Source of the DNA: a virus
Lineage: Duplodnaviria; Heunggongvirae; Uroviricota; Caudoviricetes
Direction: 5' to 3' (one strand)
DNA length: 47,473 nucleotides
IMG/VR virus record: IMGVR_UViG_2585427964_000002
The notes beneath the pieces are model-generated. The model was not told where the DNA came from. It worked only from the letters and a program-made list of their open reading frames with translations, and searched no databases. Below, piece by piece: positions 12,446-44,854 of this stretch; positions within the stretch are counted from its first letter, which is position 1; every line of letters begins with the position of its first letter. A program made the translations under genes and the position numbers.

Positions 12446-12820
12446 ATGCTCATAGATTTGGTTTTACCTTACCCGCCGACGGTGAACACTTACTGGCGAC
12501 GCCGTGGCAGCACATATTTTATCTCGGAGGAGGGAAAGCGTTATCGCCGGGCTGTGGCGCTTATTGTTCGCCAGCAGCGGCTGAAATTAAGCCTGTCCGG
12601 AAGGCTGGCGATAAAGGTGATTGCAGAGCCACCGGATAAGCGTCGTCGCGACCTGGACAATATCCTGAAAGCACCGCTGGATGCGCTGACGCATGCGGGA
12701 GTGTTAATGGACGATGAGCAGTTTGATGAAATCAATATCGTTCGTGGTCAGCCAGTATCTGGTGGACGTATGGGGGTGAAGATTTACCCCATAATGCATG
12801 AAGAGCAGGTCAAAAAATGA
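12446..12820 (+). CDS. rusA: Holliday junction resolvase RusA
   Basis: 124 aa with the RusA signature region ...DKRRRDLDNILKAPLDALT... and typical size and position upstream of Q. Confidence 0.85.
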   Translation: MLIDLVLPYPPTVNTYWRRRGSTYFISEEGKRYRRAVALIVRQQRLKLSLSGRLAIKVIAEPPDKRRRDLDNILKAPLDALTHAGVLMDDEQFDEINIVRGQPVSGGRMGVKIYPIMHEEQVKK

Positions 12821-13638
12821 AACTGGAAGATTTACCGAAATACTACTCCCCAAAATCCCCTTGCCTGACCGATGCATCGGCTTCAACGTCAAAAGATGCG
12901 CTGAGTATCACTGATGTGATGGCCGCGCAGGGCATGACACAGAATCGGGCTGAGATGGGGTTTTCTGCGTTCCTGGGGAAAATGGGCATCAGTATGAATG
13001 ACAGGGCACGGGCAACAGAATTACTGGCAGATTATGCACTCAGTCGGTGCGATCGTGTGGCGGCGTTGAGAAAACTTCCGGCAGAAATAAAACCGGTAGT
13101 GATGCGCATTATGGCTTCGTACGCTTTTGAGGATTATGCCCGCAGCGCAGCGAGTAAAAAGCAGTGCCCTTGTTGCTATGGGGAAAAATTTATTGAAAGC
13201 GTAGTTTTTACAAACAAGGTCCAGTATCCGGATGGTAAGCCGCCGGTATGGGCAAAGTGTACGAAAGGTGTGTATCCGTCTTACTGGGAAGAATGGAAAA
13301 AAGTCAGGGAGGTGGTAAAAGTTGCCTGTCCGGAGTGTGGCGGAAAGGGTGAGGTTTCCACCGCCTGTAAGGATTGCCGTGGGCGTGGTGTCGCCATTCA
13401 CCGTGAAGAGTCGGTAAAACGTGGTATGCCTGTTATCAGAGACTGCCAGCGTTGTGGTGGTCGTGGCTATGAAAGACTACCATCAACGGAGGCATTTAAT
13501 GCTATATGCGAGGTGACAAACCAGATAACACGCGCGTCATGGGAAAAAACAGTTAAGAAATTCTATGATGCGCTGGTGACCCGGTTTGATATTGAAGAAG
13601 CATGGGCTGAGCGGCAGTTAAAAAAGGTAACTAGGTAA
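12817..13638 (+). CDS. Q: Late-gene antitermination protein Q
   Basis: 273-aa ORF overlapping the rusA stop, with several CxxC zinc-binding pairs, at the position preceding the late promoter, tRNAs and lysis genes. Confidence 0.75.
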   Translation: MKLEDLPKYYSPKSPCLTDASASTSKDALSITDVMAAQGMTQNRAEMGFSAFLGKMGISMNDRARATELLADYALSRCDRVAALRKLPAEIKPVVMRIMASYAFEDYARSAASKKQCPCCYGEKFIESVVFTNKVQYPDGKPPVWAKCTKGVYPSYWEEWKKVREVVKVACPECGGKGEVSTACKDCRGRGVAIHREESVKRGMPVIRDCQRCGGRGYERLPSTEAFNAICEVTNQITRASWEKTVKKFYDALVTRFDIEEAWAERQLKKVTR

Positions 13639-13781: not shown

Positions 13782-13857
13782 GGCCCTTTAGCTCAGTGGT
13801 GAGAGCGAGCGACTCATAATCGCCAGGTCGCTGGTTCAAATCCAGCAAGGGCCACCA
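13782..13857 (+). tRNA. tRNA with CAU anticodon (Ile2/Met type, ileX/ileZ-like)
   Basis: 76-nt cloverleaf GGCCCTTTAGCTCAGTGGTGAGAGCGAGCGACTCATAATCGCCAGGTCGCTGGTTCAAATCCAGCAAGGGCCACCA; anticodon loop CTCATAA; encoded CCA end. Confidence 0.85.
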
Positions 13858-13957: not shown

Positions 13958-14034
13958 GCGTTGTTAGCTCAGCCGGACAGAGCAATTGCCTTCTAAGCAA
14001 TCGGTCACTGGTTCGAATCCAGTACAGCGCGCCA
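13958..14034 (+). tRNA. tRNA-Arg (UCU anticodon)
   Basis: 77-nt cloverleaf GCGTTGTTAGCTCAGCCGGACAGAGCAATTGCCTTCTAAGCAATCGGTCACTGGTTCGAATCCAGTACAGCGCGCCA; anticodon TCT; T-arm GGTTCGAATCC. Confidence 0.85.
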
Positions 14035-19062: not shown

Positions 19063-19236
19063 ATGAACATTGAAGAGTTAAAAACAAAAACAGAAGCAGA
19101 TATTTCTGAATATATAACAAAAAAAATCATTGAGCTTAAGAAAAAGACCGGGAAAGAAGTTACCAGTATCCAGTTTACTGCACGGGAAAAAATGACTGGT
19201 CTTGAAAGCTATGATATCAAGATTGATTTAATCTAG
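19063..19236 (+). CDS. gnsB: GnsB (Gns family) protein
   Basis: 57-codon ORF MNIEELKTKTEADISEYITKKIIELKKKTGKEVTSIQFTAREKMTGLESYDIKIDLI with AGAGGA Shine-Dalgarno; matches recalled Gns family. Confidence 0.75.
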   Translation: MNIEELKTKTEADISEYITKKIIELKKKTGKEVTSIQFTAREKMTGLESYDIKIDLI

Positions 19237-19365: not shown

Positions 19366-20271
19366 CTATATTTCCAGACATCTGTTATCACTTAACCCAT
19401 TACAAGCCCGCTGCCGCAGATATTCCCGTGGCGAGCGGTAACCCAGCGCACTATGCGGATGCCATTCGTTATAATGCTCGAACGCCTCTGCAAGGTTCTT
19501 TGCTGCCGTTAACCCGTCTGGTTTGGGCATGATACTGATGTAGTCACGCTTTATCGTTTTCACGAAGCTCTCTGCTATTCCGTTACTCTCCGGACTCCGC
19601 ACCGCCGTGTTCTTCGGTTCAAGTCCCAACATCCGGGCGAACTGGCGTGTTTCATTAGCCCGGTAGCATGAACCATTATCCGTCAGCCACTCCACTGGAG
19701 ACGACGGAAGATCGTTGCCGAAGCGGCGTTCCACCGCTCCCAGCATGACGTCCTGTACTGTTTCACTGTTGAAGCCGCCGGTAGTGACCGCCCAGTGCAG
19801 TGCCTCACGATCACAGCAGTCCAGCGCGAACGTGACACGCAGTCTCTCTCCGTTATCACAGCAGAACTCGAACCCGTCAGAGCACCATCGCTGATTGCTT
19901 TCTTTCACGGCCACTCTGCCTGTATGTGCCCGTTTCGATGGCGGTACAGCAGGTTTTCGCTCAAGCAACAGCGCATTCTGGCGCATGATCCGGTAAACAC
20001 GTTTGGCATTGATCGCAGGCATACCATCAAGTTCTGCCTGTCTGCGAAGCAGCGCCCATACCCGACGATAACCATACGTTGGCAGCTCTCCGATAACATG
20101 GTGTATACGGAGAAGCACATCCGTATCATCAGTGTGACGACTGCGGCGGCCATCCATCCAGTCATCGGTTCGTCTGAGAATGACGTGCAACTGCGCACGC
20201 GACACCCGGAGACAACGGCTGACTAAGCTTACTCCCCATCCCCGGGCAATAAGGGCGCGTGCGCTATCCAC
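19366..20271 (-). CDS. insD: IS2 transposase OrfB (InsD)
   Basis: 301-aa ORF with DDE transposase region, inside the IS2 boundaries. Confidence 0.9.
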
Positions 20272-20594
20272 TTTTTTGCCCGTCCATATTCAACGGCTTC
20301 TTTGAGGAGTTCATTTTCCATCGTTTTCTTGCCGAGCAGGCGCTGGAGTTCTTTAATCTGCTTCATGGCGGCAGCAAGTTCAGAGGCAGGAACAACCTGT
20401 TCTCCGGCGGCGACAGCAGTAAGACTTCCTTCCTGGTATTGCTTACGCCAGAGAAATAACTGGCTGGCTGCTACACCATGTTGCCGGGCAACGAGGGAGA
20501 CCGTCATCCCCGGTTCAAAGCTCTGCTGAACAATTGCGATCTTTTCCTGTGTGGTACGCCGTCTGCGTTTCTCCGGCCCTAAGACATCAATCAT
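20229..20594 (-). CDS. insC: IS2 OrfA (InsC), HTH protein
   Basis: 121-codon ORF starting [33 protein letters not shown]...; ATG at IS2 position 92 from the left end. Confidence 0.9.
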
Positions 20595-20867
20595 CTGTTC
20601 TCCAATGACTAGTCTAAAAACTAGTATTAAGACTATCACTTATTTAAGTGATATTGGTTGTCTGGAGATTCAGGGGGCCAGTCTATAAATCTCGATTGTC
20701 GATGGTATTGGTTGTGTGACAATACCTAGTCTTTCCGGTATGCCTGAAGAGAATACAAACGACAGATTATGTAAGGGAAACGCGCTGAAACTTTCACTCT
20801 TTCATGCTGAGTGATTTGACGTTATATTTTTAGCCGCAAGTGAAGAGCAAACGAATGGAGCGACAAA

Positions 20868-36543: not shown

Positions 36544-39945
<3,402 letters not shown>

Positions 39946-40011: not shown

Positions 40012-40611
40012 ATGCGTAAACTTTATGCCGCCATTTTGTCCGCAGCCATTTGTCTGGCCGTATCCGGTGCGCCTGCATGGGCGTCTGAACATCAGTCCAC
40101 GCTGAGCGCGGGGTATCTTCATGCCCGGACGAACGTTCCCGGCAGTGATGATCTGAACGGGATTAACGTGAAATACCGTTATGAGTTTACGGACACACTG
40201 GGGCTGGTGACGTCATTCAGCTATGCAGGAGACAAGAATCGCCAGCTTACCCGTTACAGCGATACCCGCTGGCATGAAGATTCCGTGCGTAACCGCTGGT
40301 TCAGCGTGATGGTGGGGCCGTCTGTGCGCGTGAATGAATGGTTCAGCGCGTATGCGATGGCGGGTATGGCTTACAGCCGTGTGTCGACTTTCTCCGGGGA
40401 TTATCTCCGCGTAACTGACAACAAGGGGAAAACGCACGACGTGCTGACCGGAAGTGATGACGGTCGCCACAGCAACACGTCTCTGGCGTGGGGAGCTGGC
40501 GTGCAGTTTAACCCGACCGAATCCGTGGCCATTGATATTGCTTATGAAGGCTCCGGCAGTGGCGACTGGCGCACTGACGGTTTCATCGTGGGTGTCGGTT
40601 ATAAGTTCTGA
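40012..40611 (+). CDS. lom: Lom outer-membrane protein (Ail/Lom family)
   Basis: 199 aa with signal peptide and beta-barrel alternation, ending ...[10 protein letters not shown]; downstream of J. Confidence 0.85.
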
Positions 40612-40675
40612 TTAGCCAGGTAACACAGTGTTATGACAGCCCGCCGGTTCAGGCGGGCTTTTTTGTGGGGGGAAT

Positions 40676-42601
40676 ATGGCAGTACGGATTTCAGGTGTAC
40701 TGAAAGATGGCGCAGGTAAGCCGATACAAAACTGCACCATTCAGCTAAAGGCCAGGCGCAACAGCACCACGGTGGTGGTGAACACGCTGGCCTCAGAAAA
40801 CCCGGATGAAGCCGGGCGTTACAGCATGGACGTTGAGTACGGGCAGTACAGCGTTATTCTGTTGGTGGAAGGATTCCCGCCGTCACATGCCGGGACCATC
40901 ACCGTGTATGAAGATTCTCAACCCGGTACGCTGAATGATTTTCTCGGTGCCATGACGGAGGATGATGCCCGTCCGGAGGCACTGCGCCGTTTTGAACAGA
41001 TGGTGGAAGAGGTGGCGCGTAACGCGTCCGTGGTGGCACAGAACACGGCAGCCGCGAAGAAGTCAGCCAGTGATGCCGGCACATCTGCCCGTGAGGCGGC
41101 AACCCATGCGACTGATGCTGCAGATTCAGCACGTGCAGCCAGCACGTCAGCCGGACAGGCCGCGTCGTCGGCTCAGTCAGCGTCTTCCAGCGCAGGAACG
41201 GCATCAACAAAGGCCACTGAAGCGGAAAAAAGTGCTGCCGCTGCAGAGTCCTCAAAAAGCGCGGCAGCTACCAGTGCCGCTGCCGCGAAAACGTCAGAAA
41301 CGAATGCCGCAGCGTCACAACAATCAGCCGCCACTTCTGCATCCACCGCGACCACGAAAGCGTCAGAAGCTGCCACCTCAGCCCGGGATGCGGCGGCTTC
41401 AAAAGAGGCGGCAAAATCATCAGAAACGAACGCATCCTCGAGCGCCAGTAGCGCAGCTTCCTCGGCAACGGCGGCAGCAAATTCCGCGAAGGCGGCAAAA
41501 ACGTCCGAGACGAACGCCAGGTCTTCTGAGACGGCAGCGGGACAGAGCGCCTCAGCTGCGGCAGGCTCAAAAACAGCGGCTGCGTCGTCTGCCAGTGCCG
41601 CGTCAACAAGTGCCGGGCAGGCCTCAGCCAGTGCCACCGCTGCCGGAAAATCGGCAGAAAGCGCCGCATCGTCCGCTTCAACAGCCACAACGAAGGCTGG
41701 CGAAGCCACTGAGCAGGCCACGGCAGCAGCGAGGTCTGCTTCCGCAGCGAAGACATCCGAGACGAACGCGAAAGCGTCGGAAACCAGCGCAGAATCCTCA
41801 AAAACGGCTGCCGCATCGTCCGCCAGTTCGGCGGCGTCATCGGCATCATCTGCGTCTGCTTCAAAAGATGAGGCGACCAGACAGGCGTCAGCAGCAAAGG
41901 GCAGCGCCACGACGGCATCCACGAAGGCGACAGAGGCAGCTGGCAGTGCGACGGCGGCAGCTCAGAGCAAAAGTACGGCGGAATCCGCGGCAACGCGCGC
42001 CGAGACAGCGGCAAAACGGGCAGAGGATATTGCATCCGCCGTGGCGCTTGAGGATGCGAGCACGACGAAAAAGGGGATAGTACAGCTCAGCAGTGCGACT
42101 AACAGCACTTCCGAGTCACTGGCGGCAACGCCAAAAGCCGTTAAGGCCGCGTATGAGCTGGCTAACGGGAAATACACCGCACAGGATGCAACGACAGCAC
42201 AGAAAGGGATAGTTCAGCTCAGCAGCGCGACCAACAGCACATCTGAAATGCTGGCGGCAACGCCAAAGTCGGTAAAGGCAGCCTATGACCTTGCTAACGG
42301 GAAATATACTGCTCAGGACGCTACGACAGCACAAAAAGGAATTGTCCAGCTCAGTAGTGCAACCAACAGCGCATCTGAAACGCTTGCCGCGACACCGAAA
42401 GCAGTGAAAGCAGCTAATGATAATGCGAATGGTCGGGTACCTTCTGCCCGAAAGGTGAATGGTAAGGCGCTTTCAGCGGATATAACACTGACGCCGAAAG
42501 ATATTGGTACGCTTAACTCAACAACAATGTCATTCAGCGGTGGTGCTGGTTGGTTCAAATTAGCAACGGTAACCATGCCACAGGCGAGTTCTGTTGTTTA
42601 A
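40676..42601 (+). CDS. stf: Side tail fiber protein, N-terminal/shaft portion, ended by an in-frame TAA
   Basis: 641 aa with a conserved N-terminus and long Ala/Ser/Thr-rich shaft containing tandem 43-residue repeats. TAA at 42599-42601 is followed in the same frame by the distal-domain ORF. Confidence 0.7.
   Translation: MAVRISGVLKDGAGKPIQNCTIQLKARRNSTTVVVNTLASENPDEAGRYSMDVEYGQYSVILLVEGFPPSHAGTITVYEDSQPGTLNDFLGAMTEDDARPEALRRFEQMVEEVARNASVVAQNTAAAKKSASDAGTSAREAATHATDAADSARAASTSAGQAASSAQSASSSAGTASTKATEAEKSAAAAESSKSAAATSAAAAKTSETNAAASQQSAATSASTATTKASEAATSARDAAASKEAAKSSETNASSSASSAASSATAAANSAKAAKTSETNARSSETAAGQSASAAAGSKTAAASSASAASTSAGQASASATAAGKSAESAASSASTATTKAGEATEQATAAARSASAAKTSETNAKASETSAESSKTAAASSASSAASSASSASASKDEATRQASAAKGSATTASTKATEAAGSATAAAQSKSTAESAATRAETAAKRAEDIASAVALEDASTTKKGIVQLSSATNSTSESLAATPKAVKAAYELANGKYTAQDATTAQKGIVQLSSATNSTSEMLAATPKSVKAAYDLANGKYTAQDATTAQKGIVQLSSATNSASETLAATPKAVKAANDNANGRVPSARKVNGKALSADITLTPKDIGTLNSTTMSFSGGAGWFKLATVTMPQASSVV
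42064..42420 (+). repeat. Tandem near-identical 129-bp (43-codon) repeats within stf, about 3 copies
   Basis: Repeated KGIVQLSSATNSTSE(S/M/T)LAATPK(A/S)VKAAY(E/D)LANGKYTAQDATTAQ units read in the translation and DNA. Confidence 0.7.
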
Positions 42602-43591
42602 ATTACGTTGATTGGTGGCGCGGGATTTAACGTGGGGTCACCTCAACAGGCAGGTATATCTGAACTTGTTTTGCGTGCAGGTAATGGTAATCCGAAGGGG
42701 ATTACTGGTGCTTTATGGCAGCGCACATCGACAGGGTTTACAAATTTTGCCTGGGTCAATACATCTGGTGATACTTACGATATTTACGTTGCAATCGGAA
42801 ATTATGCGACTGGTGTAAATATTCAATGGGATTATACCAGTAATGCCAGCGTGACTATTCATACGTCACCAGCATATTCTGCTAATAAGCCGGAAGGGTT
42901 AACGGACGGTACAGTTTATTCACTCTATACGCCATCAGAGCAGTTTTATCCGCCTGGCGCACCAATCCCGTGGCCATCAGATACCGTTCCGTCTGGTTAT
43001 GCCCTGATGCAGGGGCAGACTTTTGACAAATCCGCTTACCCGAAACTTGCAACCGCTTATCCGTCAGGCGTGATCCCTGATATGCGTGGCTGGACGATTA
43101 AGGGCAAACCTGCCAGTGGTCGGGCCGTATTGTCTCAGGAACAGGACGGCATTAAATCGCACACCCACAGCGCCAGTGCATCCAGTACGGATTTGGGGAC
43201 GAAAACCACATCGTCGTTTGATTACGGCACTAAATCCACGAATAACACCGGGGCGCATACGCACAGTGTGAGCGGTACAGCCGCAAGTGCCGGAAACCAT
43301 ACTCATAGTGTCACAGGCGCATCAGCAGTCAGCCAGTGGTCACAAAATGGGTCAGTACATAAGGTAGTGTCTGCGGCCAGTGTGAATACAAGTGCTGCAG
43401 GAGCGCACACTCATAGTGTCAGCGGCACAGCTGCATCTGCAGGTGCTCACGCACATACTGTCGGTATTGGTGCTCATACGCACTCTGTTGCGATTGGCTC
43501 ACATGGACACACCATCACCGTTAACGCTGCTGGTAACGCGGAAAACACTGTCAAAAACATCGCATTTAACTACATTGTGAGGCTTGCATAA
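42602..43591 (+). CDS. Side tail fiber distal (receptor-binding) portion, separated from the shaft ORF by a stop codon
   Basis: ORF in the same frame as stf, starting right after TAA ([12 protein letters not shown]...). His-rich HTHS(V) repeat region typical of lambda/T-even distal fiber domains. Followed by tfa. Confidence 0.6.
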
Positions 43592-44166
43592 TGGCATTCA
43601 GAATGAGTGAACAACCACGGACCATAAAAATTTATAATCTGCTGGCAGGAACTAATGAATTTATTGGTGAAGGTGACGCATATATTCCGCCTCATACAGG
43701 TCTGCCAGCAAACAGTTCCTATATTGCACCGCCAGATATTCCGGCTGGCTTCGTGGCTGTTTTCAACAGTGATGAGGCATCGTGGCATCTCGTTGAAGAT
43801 CATCGGGGTAAAACCGTCTATGACGTGGCTTCCGGCGACGCGTTATTTATTTCTGAACTTGGCCCATTACCGGAAAATGTCACCTGGTTATCCCCGGAAG
43901 GGGAGTTTCAGAAGTGGAACGGCACAGCCTGGGTGAAGGATACGGAAGCAGAAAAACTGTTCCGGATCCGGGAGGCGGAAGAAACAAAAAACAACCTGAT
44001 GCAGGTAGCCAGTGAGCATATTGCGCCGCTTCAGGATGCTGCAGATCTGGAAATTGCAACGGAGGAAGAAATCTCGTTGCTGGAAGCATGGAAAAAGTAT
44101 CGGGTATTGCTGAACCGTGTTGATACGTCAACTGCACAGGATATTGAATGGCCAGCACTGCCGTAG
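43591..44166 (+). CDS. tfa: Tail fiber assembly protein Tfa
   Basis: 191 aa directly downstream of the distal fiber ORF; Tfa-family-like C-terminus. Confidence 0.8.
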
Positions 44167-44263: not shown

Positions 44264-44854
44264 TTATATGTCAGGTGTCTGAAGTTTTGCTTTGGCTCTT
44301 AAAATGGTTTGCCGCGAGGTTTTGAATTCCCGGGCAATGGCACTTATACTTACACCTGACTTAATTCGTTCGAATACCACCTGTTTCTGTTCTTCATTTA
44401 ACACAGGTGGTCGACCAAAACGTTTCCCTGCGCCGCGGGCTCTTACTATCCCGGAATGAGTGCGTTCAAGTAAAAGGTCTCGTTCAAATTCAGCGACTGC
44501 TGAAATTACTTGCATCATCATTTTTCCTGTTGGACTGGTCAGGTCAATGCCCCCCAATGCTAAGCAATGCACTCTGATACCTGTTTCGGTCAGTTGTTCC
44601 ACTGTTTTCCTGATATCCATTGCATTACAACCAAGGCGATCCAGTTTTGTCACAATCAATTGATCACCACATTTCAGGCGAGCAAGCAACCGGTTAAAAC
44701 CAGGACGCTCACTGGTTGCTGCTGAGCCGCTAATGTGTTCTTCGATTATTTGCTGAGGTTTGATTTTAAAACCTGCACTTTCGATTTCCCGGCGTTGATT
44801 TTCGGTGGTCTGATCCAGCGTTGATATCCGACAGTAAGCAAAAATTCGAGACAT
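44264..44854 (-). CDS. pinQ: Serine recombinase / DNA invertase (PinQ/PinR-like)
   Basis: 196 aa with N-terminal catalytic region (YCRISTLDQ...; Ser-recombinase motifs) and C-terminal HTH; matches the recalled 196-aa PinQ/PinR class. Confidence 0.85.

What the first reader, a model, noticed from the sequence alone, without database searches (positions are those of the whole stretch)
42560..42640. In-frame TAA separates the side tail fiber shaft from its distal receptor-binding domain at a mosaic junction
The 641-aa stf ORF ends ...SFSGGAGWFKLATVTMPQASSVV at TAA 42599-42601, and the next codons in the same frame continue [16 protein letters not shown]... into a 327-aa His-rich distal domain followed by tfa. 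Both sides of the stop begin a similar GGAG(W/F) motif, suggesting a recombinational swap of the distal cassette that left a stop codon. The fiber is either inactivated, expressed as two polypeptides, or dependent on read-through.
Basis: seen in the sequence. Interest (0 to 1): 0.45.

Follow-up and report, generated by a model that had tools for sequence, protein, structure and literature searches.

The report
Nonsense mutation in prophage tail fibre
A single C-to-A base change has put a stop codon into the middle of the side tail fibre gene of an otherwise intact lambda-like prophage of E. coli; it is an ordinary knockout like the one in laboratory phage lambda, not a recombination scar or a special two-part gene.

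Summary
The in-frame TAA at 42599-42601 is real. Window 40676-43591 is base-for-base colinear with a single 2,916-nt, 971-codon side tail fibre gene (stf) that complete E. coli genomes annotate as intact. Codon 642 is TCA (Ser) in every relative read, and the window differs by one C>A change at 42600. The TAA allele was found nowhere else: not in 5,426 complete E. coli genomes, 50,697 phage records, GTDB representatives or IMG/VR, and 74 of 74 metagenome contigs have C.

There is no mosaic junction at the stop. The stop also does not lie between shaft and receptor-binding domain. It falls in the most conserved block of a ~160-residue module, in the third strand of a modelled all-beta domain. 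The T4 gp37-like tip, and the real cassette-swap junction, begin about 100 codons downstream.

Two-polypeptide expression and read-through have no support: no Shine-Dalgarno at the TTG, no suppressor tRNA, no downstream RNA structure, no conserved stop.

The best reading is a recent loss-of-function point mutation (or, less likely, a base-call error). All 20 other morphogenesis genes checked are intact and the sequence downstream of the stop has not decayed. The expected result is virions without side fibres, as in lambda PaPa. Low interest.

The parts
40676..43591 (+). Complete stf (side tail fibre) reading frame: 971 codons plus the natural TAA stop, interrupted once at codon 642
   Evidence: Same length as, and colinear without gaps with, single intact CDSs annotated 'prophage tail fiber N-terminal domain-containing protein' in L001, L002, L003 and L078-L083. 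tblastn of the JNEC-KY172 protein covers residues 1-971 at 99.3% identity with exactly one stop.
40676..42601 (+). Truncated product actually encoded (641 aa). It holds the tail-attachment domain (residues 1-134), the Ala/Ser-rich shaft, three Phage_fiber_2 repeats and only the first ~30 residues of the beta domain
   Evidence: ORF list. Pfam on the 99%-identical intact homolog gives PF08400 at 1-134 and PF03406 three times, best stretch 462-502.
42599..42601 (+). Premature ochre stop TAA. The mutated base is 42600 (C>A; ancestral codon TCA, Ser642)
   Evidence: The allele is absent from all collections searched.
42434..42931 (+). Conserved ~166-residue fibre module (residues 587-752) that contains the stop. 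The modelled all-beta domain spans about residues 612-750 (42509-42925)
   Evidence: It travels as one piece in 110 phage records. Invariant columns lie on both sides of residue 642. AlphaFold model has pLDDT 75-89 over the domain, with residue 642 in strand 3. Foldseek matches tailspike-type beta domains 6TGF, 6E1R and 6C72.
42602..43591 (+). Untranslated remainder of stf (residues 643-971). The '327-aa ORF' from TTG 42608 is a mechanical ORF, not a gene
   Evidence: No Shine-Dalgarno before TTG 42608 (+1.0 kcal/mol against -5.6 to -10.3 for real starts), and only a weak candidate at GTG 42632 (-6.0). No private substitution between 42601 and 46224.
42905..43588 (+). Receptor-binding tip (residues 744-971): collar plus His-x-His needle and head, homologous to the T4 gp37 tip
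   Evidence: phmmer against PDB 2XGF chain A, E = 3.8e-89, aligned over query 203-430, which is Stf residues 744-971. Pfam Collar at 761-808 and Phage_fiber at 856-869.
43591..44166 (+). tfa, tail fibre assembly chaperone. It is intact, and its ATG overlaps the natural stf stop (TAATG)
   Evidence: PF02413, E = 3.7e-43. 99% identical to TfaQ over its full length. Overlap read directly.

Best explanation
The window carries a full-length lambdoid prophage of the Qin type, inserted in ydfJ. Its side tail fibre gene stf has acquired one recent C>A transversion at 42600 that turns Ser642 (TCA) into an ochre stop (TAA).

Shown:
- Translation of stf ends at residue 641.
- The stop lies inside a conserved all-beta domain, about 100 residues before the T4 gp37-like receptor-binding tip.

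Inferred:
- The 641-aa product keeps the N-terminal tail-attachment domain and shaft. It lacks the tip and everything on which the Tfa chaperone acts, so no functional side fibres are made.
- The distal 329 codons are silent DNA.
- tfa starts on the natural stf stop (TAATG), so its translation is probably reduced as well.
- The central fibre J and all other morphogenesis genes checked are intact. Induced particles should therefore still form and infect through J, adsorbing more slowly or to fewer hosts, as laboratory lambda PaPa does with its stf frameshift.
For: - Single-base difference, perfect colinearity and TCA in all relatives read.
- One annotated CDS spans the site in every listed hit of 1,234 full-length genomes.
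- TAA allele absent: no exact match among 1,299 genomes that carry the 80-nt region; no seed hit for a 31-mer centred on the A in E. coli genomes or phages; none in GTDB representatives or IMG/VR; 74 of 74 metagenome contigs have C; the 641-aa product is not on record.
- Residue 642 is a sense codon (Ser, Tyr or Val) in E. coli and Salmonella homologs and sits between invariant columns, in a modelled beta-strand.
- The tip begins at residue ~744.
- Recent origin: no private change downstream of the stop within stf or tfa, and only two differences from B7A over 41900-43600.
- Isolated lesion: 21 morphogenesis genes from terS to tfa are full-length, and only stf has a stop.
- Real lineage divergence rather than noise: 30 private substitutions, about half of the scattered ones synonymous, and no frameshift in any compared CDS.
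Against: - No reads are available, so a base-call error at 42600 cannot be excluded.
- The functional consequences were not tested here: no fibres, reduced Tfa, viable particles. They rest on analogy with lambda and T4.
- The domain model is a monomer prediction from a 24-sequence alignment (mean pLDDT 58.6, good only over the domain).
- The prophage also carries an IS2, and its inducibility is unknown.
Confidence: 0.8

Rival explanations
1. The TAA is a sequencing or assembly error. The real genome has TCA and an intact 971-aa Stf.
For: The allele is unique among all public sequences searched. The sequence downstream of the stop shows no decay at all. A very recent mutation would give the same pattern.
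Against: The assembly looks clean. None of the 38 CDSs compared has a frameshift or another stop. The window's other private changes have the spectrum of real divergence, and a private synonymous change lies 149 nt away at 42451. The site is not a long homopolymer (TTT-A-AA context).
Confidence: 0.13
2. The stop marks a recombination joint where a distal receptor-binding cassette was swapped in.
For: Tail fibre genes of this family are mosaic, and alternative tips are joined to the same module in other genomes. A GGAG tetrapeptide occurs on both sides of the stop. Rare deletion endpoints at residues 630-634 exist in other genomes (P0007, P0008).
Against: The same flanks are joined without a stop in over a thousand genomes, and the window differs from them by one base. 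No similarity breakpoint lies between 42502 and 42891. Match counts are nearly equal left of the site and across it. The module spans the site as one piece in 110 phage records. The real cassette junction is at residue ~752-760. There is no DNA repeat under the GGAG motifs.
Confidence: 0.02
3. The fibre is still made, either by stop-codon read-through or suppression, or as two polypeptides that assemble, with the distal one re-initiating just after the stop.
For: GTG 42632, 31 nt after the stop, has a weak Shine-Dalgarno-like match (-6.0 kcal/mol). Termination-reinitiation over short distances is known in bacteria (general knowledge). Host suppressor status is unknown.
Against: No homolog has a stop here, so nothing has evolved around it. 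TAA is the stop read by both release factors (general knowledge). There is no suppressor tRNA in the window and no RNA structure after the stop (z = 0.15). TTG 42608 has no Shine-Dalgarno. The break is inside a beta-strand of a folded domain, so two fragments would have to complement within one fold.
Confidence: 0.05

Closest known systems
Phage lambda PaPa stf frameshift (orf-401 / orf-314) versus Ur-lambda
   Same: Same gene in the same position (J - lom - stf - tfa). The same N-terminal domain and gp37-like tip. One small lesion splits the gene into an N-terminal ORF and a distal ORF in an otherwise intact phage. In lambda the result is no side fibres, with viability retained through J.
   Different: Here the lesion is a nonsense substitution (TCA to TAA) and not a 1-bp deletion. 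It lies in an extra ~160-residue beta module that lambda Stf lacks. It is in a chromosomal prophage at ydfJ, and its phenotype has not been tested.
Qin defective prophage of E. coli K-12 (stfQ remnant, tfaQ, pinQ, ydfK, split ydfJ)
   Same: Same insertion site and same right end. pinQ and ydfK are 100% identical at protein level, TfaQ is 99% identical, and a truncated ydfJ flanks the prophage.
   Different: Relatives with K-12-type decay have lost the late region by a terminase-to-stf deletion. The window keeps all late genes and has only a point lesion in stf.
T4 long tail fibre tip gp37 (PDB 2XGF)
   Same: Residues 744-971 align end to end with the solved tip, including the His-x-His iron-binding needle (E = 3.8e-89).
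   Different: Only the last 228 residues are related. Everything upstream is lambdoid Stf architecture.

Membership tests
Lambdoid side tail fibre Stf | N-terminal 'prophage tail fibre N-terminal' domain (PF08400) | tested here: met
   E = 7.5e-72, residues 1-134, on the 99%-identical intact homolog L002. The window aligns over residues 1-971.
Lambdoid side tail fibre Stf | Phage_fiber_2 repeats in the shaft and a gp37-like collar plus His-rich tip at the C-terminus | tested here: met
   PF03406 three times, PF07484 and PF03335. PDB 2XGF at E = 3.8e-89.
Lambdoid side tail fibre Stf | Gene order J - lom - stf - tfa, with a Caudo_TAP chaperone immediately downstream | tested here: met
Lambdoid side tail fibre Stf | One uninterrupted reading frame (a functional gene) | tested here: not met
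   TAA at codon 642. By this criterion the window copy is a pseudogene of the family.
Programmed stop-codon read-through / recoding site | Stop codon conserved among homologs | tested here: not met
   All relatives have a sense codon: TCA in L001-L003 and L078-L083, C in 74 of 74 metagenome contigs, and Ser/Tyr/Val at protein level.
Programmed stop-codon read-through / recoding site | Stimulatory RNA structure downstream, or a cognate suppressor tRNA | tested here: not met
   Fold z-score 0.15. Only tRNA-Met(CAT) and tRNA-Arg(TCT) are present.
Natural two-gene (split) tail fibre | Distal gene has its own start codon with a ribosome-binding site, and the split is conserved | tested here: not met
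   TTG 42608 has no Shine-Dalgarno (+1.0 kcal/mol). Homologs are annotated as a single CDS.
Din-invertase-switched fibre cassette (Mu G, P1 C, e14 P segments) | Serine invertase gene adjacent to the fibre genes | tested here: met
   pin at 44264-44854 (-): Resolvase plus HTH_7 domains, 100% identical to PinQ.
Din-invertase-switched fibre cassette (Mu G, P1 C, e14 P segments) | Inverted crossover sites flanking the distal fibre/tfa segment, and a second, oppositely oriented cassette | tested here: not met
   No inverted repeat has one arm at or near the stop and the other beyond tfa. No AAACCNNGGTTT core near stf; that consensus was recalled from memory. Only one tfa and one tip are present.

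The most novel reading that the evidence does not exclude
The lesion does not abolish the fibre. Ribosomes terminating at TAA 42599 would re-initiate at GTG 42632. The ~320-residue distal fragment, folded with Tfa, would then complement the 641-residue stub non-covalently within the split beta domain. Alternatively, the host carries an ochre suppressor. Either way the result would be a conditionally expressed or two-piece side fibre.
Probability: 0.03. Interest if true: 0.4.

Novelty: new member of a known kind. Interest (0 to 1): 0.08.

Why it matters
It matters little beyond annotation. The two ORFs should be annotated as one stf pseudogene, not as a shaft gene plus a receptor-binding gene. 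Host-range or adsorption predictions for this prophage should assume no side fibres.

It adds a natural instance of the lambda PaPa situation, in which side fibres are lost from an otherwise intact lambdoid phage. This is consistent with published evidence that stf knockouts arise readily and can be advantageous in structured environments (PMC2762979).

A by-product of the analysis is where cassette exchange really happens in this fibre family: residues ~587 and ~752-760. That is useful for engineering chimeric fibres.

Tried and rejected
- **Mosaic junction at the stop.** Tested four ways: a spread sample of BLAST hits, breakpoints in 78 loci, match counts for left-flank and centred 80-mers, and single-piece coverage in phages. 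Rejected. I re-examined it after noticing database fragments that begin at residues 630-634. These are contig-end partials (P0009, P0010), an ORF call at internal Met634 of an otherwise disrupted copy (P0013), or rare deletion fusions with 1-2 member sequences (P0007, P0008).
- **Invertible segment driven by the adjacent pin gene.** No flanking inverted repeats and no crossover core. Rejected.
- **Suppressor tRNA in the prophage.** None.
- **Read-through-stimulating RNA structure.** None.
- **Independent distal gene.** No ribosome-binding site at the TTG.
- **GGAG motif as a repeat.** It is enriched against shuffles (P ~ 0.00025 for that tetrapeptide), but the motif was chosen after seeing it, has no DNA or peptide similarity around it, and is present in intact homologs.
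- **Identifying the source genome.** The exact-product look-up and the 35-mer scans found nothing. The closest complete genome is JNEC-KY172, at 39 differences in 11.5 kb.
- **Large protein search.** It returned mostly short contig-end partials. It was of little use for the two-gene question, but it supplied the alignment used for the model.

Full report
**1. What is in the sequence**

TAA occupies 42599-42601 in the reading frame that opens at ATG 40676. The upstream ORF is 641 aa. The same frame continues open for another 329 codons to a natural TAA at 43589-43591. The mechanical ORF list gives a 327-aa ORF from TTG 42608. tfa follows at 43591-44166, and a pin-type serine invertase lies on the opposite strand at 44264-44854. 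The observation as a string of bases is correct.

**2. What the locus is**

The surrounding genes are J (36547-39945), lom (40012-40611), stf, tfa, pin, ydfK and a 5'-truncated ydfJ. In the closest complete genomes the equivalent region is annotated gpJ, Ail/Lom, 'prophage tail fiber N-terminal domain-containing protein', tfaQ, pinQ, ydfK, ynfT and ydfJ (incomplete). The window therefore holds a full-length relative of the K-12 Qin prophage, inserted in ydfJ. The left end of the window carries an integrase, a RecE-like exonuclease and a DicA-type repressor.

**3. The stop is a single-base substitution in an otherwise intact gene**

- In the homologs, stf is one CDS of 2,916 nt, exactly the length of window 40676-43591.
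- Ungapped comparison with three of them shows codon 642 as TCA (Ser) where the window has TAA. The only change in that codon is C>A at 42600.
- Six further close relatives agree.
- Over 41900-43600 the window is 99.9% identical to strain B7A. The two differences are 42451 (synonymous) and 42600.

**4. The allele is private**

- An 80-nt query across the site matches 1,299 complete E. coli genomes. None is identical, and the best are one mismatch away.
- A 31-nt query centred on the A can seed megablast only if the A is present. It finds nothing in 5,426 E. coli genomes or 50,697 phage records.
- An exact 35-mer with TAA is absent from GTDB representative genomes and from IMG/VR.
- The same 35-mer with N at the variable base finds 74 metagenome contigs, all with C.
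- The 641-aa product is not on record among 153 billion gene positions.
- At protein level, residue 642 is Ser in close relatives, Tyr in a sister allele and Val in Salmonella versions. It is never a stop.

The stop is abnormal.

**5. There is no mosaic junction at the stop**

- In a spread sample of BLAST hits, partial matches start or end at about 42147, 42435, 42891-42968 and 43266.
- In 78 loci that span the site, internal similarity ends at 42071-42080, 42203, 42431-42438 or 42502 on the left and at 43213-43309 on the right. None ends between 42502 and 42891.
- Those loci were selected by a 35-mer across the site. I therefore also compared match counts for the 80 nt to the left (1,480 places in 1,333 genomes) with the 80 nt across the stop (1,425 places in 1,299 genomes). 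The counts are nearly equal.
- Some database fragments begin at residues 630-634. They are contig-end partials, an ORF call at internal Met634 of a disrupted copy, or rare deletion fusions in other genomes. None applies to the window, which is colinear with intact genes.
- GGAG does occur at residues 622 and 647. However, the DNA beneath is 14/30 identical, the flanking peptides are not significantly similar (best E = 1.0), and intact homologs carry both copies.

**6. The stop is not at the shaft/tip boundary**

- Pfam places the N-terminal tail-fibre domain at residues 1-134, three Phage_fiber_2 repeats in the shaft (best stretch 462-502), Collar at 761-808 and His-rich repeats from 856.
- Residues 744-971 align end to end with the solved T4 gp37 receptor-binding tip (2XGF, E = 3.8e-89).
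- Alternative tips are joined to the same upstream module at residue ~752 in other genomes (P0011, P0012, P0014-P0016, P0030, P0041, P0085). This matches the DNA breakpoints at 42942-42968. Cassette swapping does happen in this family, but about 330 nt downstream of the stop.
- Residue 642 lies in a ~166-residue module (587-752) that occurs as one uninterrupted piece in 110 phage records. These include P1-like, ST64B-like, Yersinia myophage and T4-like fibres.
- In an alignment of 24 homologs, invariant or near-invariant columns flank the position on both sides: W, K, A, T, V, M, P, Q, S | I, L, G, G, G, N.
- An AlphaFold model is confident (pLDDT 75-89) over residues ~612-750 only. It shows a ten-strand all-beta domain with residue 642 inside strand 3. 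The fold resembles beta domains of tailspike proteins (6TGF, 6E1R, 6C72).

**7. Consequences**

*Shown.* Translation of stf ends at residue 641. The distal ORF has no Shine-Dalgarno at its TTG (+1.0 kcal/mol, against -5.6 to -10.3 for nine real starts nearby), and only a weak match precedes GTG 42632. There is no suppressor tRNA and no RNA structure after the stop. The tfa ATG overlaps the natural stf stop.

*Inferred.* The stub keeps the tail-attachment domain but lacks the tip. [quoted passage not shown] I therefore expect no side fibres and probably less Tfa. Particles should be otherwise normal and infect through J.

**8. Age and reality of the mutation**

- All 21 morphogenesis genes from terS to tfa align full-length, and only stf contains a stop.
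- There is no private substitution between 42601 and 46224, so the silent distal part has not decayed. The lesion is recent.
- The window has 30 private substitutions against its six closest relatives over 11.5 kb. Seventeen form a recombined patch in the first 42 codons of stf. Of the scattered remainder, about half are synonymous.
- No compared CDS has a frameshift.

The assembly therefore looks accurate and the lineage genuinely distinct. This favours a real mutation over an error, but only reads can settle one base.

**9. Comparison with what is known**

The closest precedent is lambda PaPa, whose stf is split into orf-401 and orf-314 by a frameshift (annotated in J02459; PMC12617516). Side fibres are dispensable and speed adsorption 10-30-fold. 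Knockouts are readily selected: 19 of 21 large-plaque isolates had stf mutations (PMC2762979). Other E. coli genomes carry independent lesions of this same gene, namely frameshifts near residues 675-680 and terminase-to-stf deletions of the K-12 Qin type.

**10. Verdict**

This is an ordinary, private loss-of-function point mutation, or less likely a base-call error, in a well-known gene. It involves no recombination scar, recoding site or split-gene architecture. It is a new instance of a known kind of event and is of low interest.

Noticed in passing
window 19366-20639: An IS2 element (TnpB 19366-20271 on the minus strand, with a second ORF at 20229-20639) is inserted in the prophage between gnsB (19063-19233) and the small-terminase gene (21627). 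It is the only other sign of disruption seen in the prophage.
   Followed up: partly
window 40671-40801: Seventeen of the window's 30 private substitutions against its six closest relatives cluster in the first 42 codons of stf. [quoted passage not shown] There is thus a real mosaic feature in this stf, but about 1.8 kb upstream of the stop.
   Followed up: partly
window 44264-44854 (-): The pin invertase is 100% identical to PinQ. No inverted crossover sites and no second fibre cassette were found around stf and tfa, so it appears to be an orphan invertase, as in K-12 Qin.
   Followed up: partly
window 13782-13857 and 13958-14034: There are two phage-borne tRNA genes, tRNA-Met(CAT) and tRNA-Arg(TCT), just downstream of a Q-like antiterminator (12817-13638). 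That antiterminator is only 41% identical to ydfT of the closest genome, so the late-regulation region is a different mosaic module.
   Followed up: no
window 42929-42968 (Stf residues ~752-760): This is the true cassette-exchange point of the fibre family. The same beta module is joined either to the T4 gp37-like tip, as here, or to an unrelated tip ending ...TWYNVAQV in other E. coli genomes (P0015, P0016, P0030, P0085).
   Followed up: partly
window 39347, 42451, 42600, 47357: Four of the 13 scattered private substitutions are transversions to A (C>A, T>A, C>A, T>A). The numbers are too small to infer a mutational bias.
   Followed up: no
P0007, P0008, P0043, P0054, P0040 (other genomes): Other E. 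coli genomes carry independent deletions that fuse the terminase small subunit, or the Stf N-terminal domain, directly to Stf residues ~492, ~586 or ~630-633. The late region of Qin-type prophages has been lost repeatedly in this way.
   Followed up: partly
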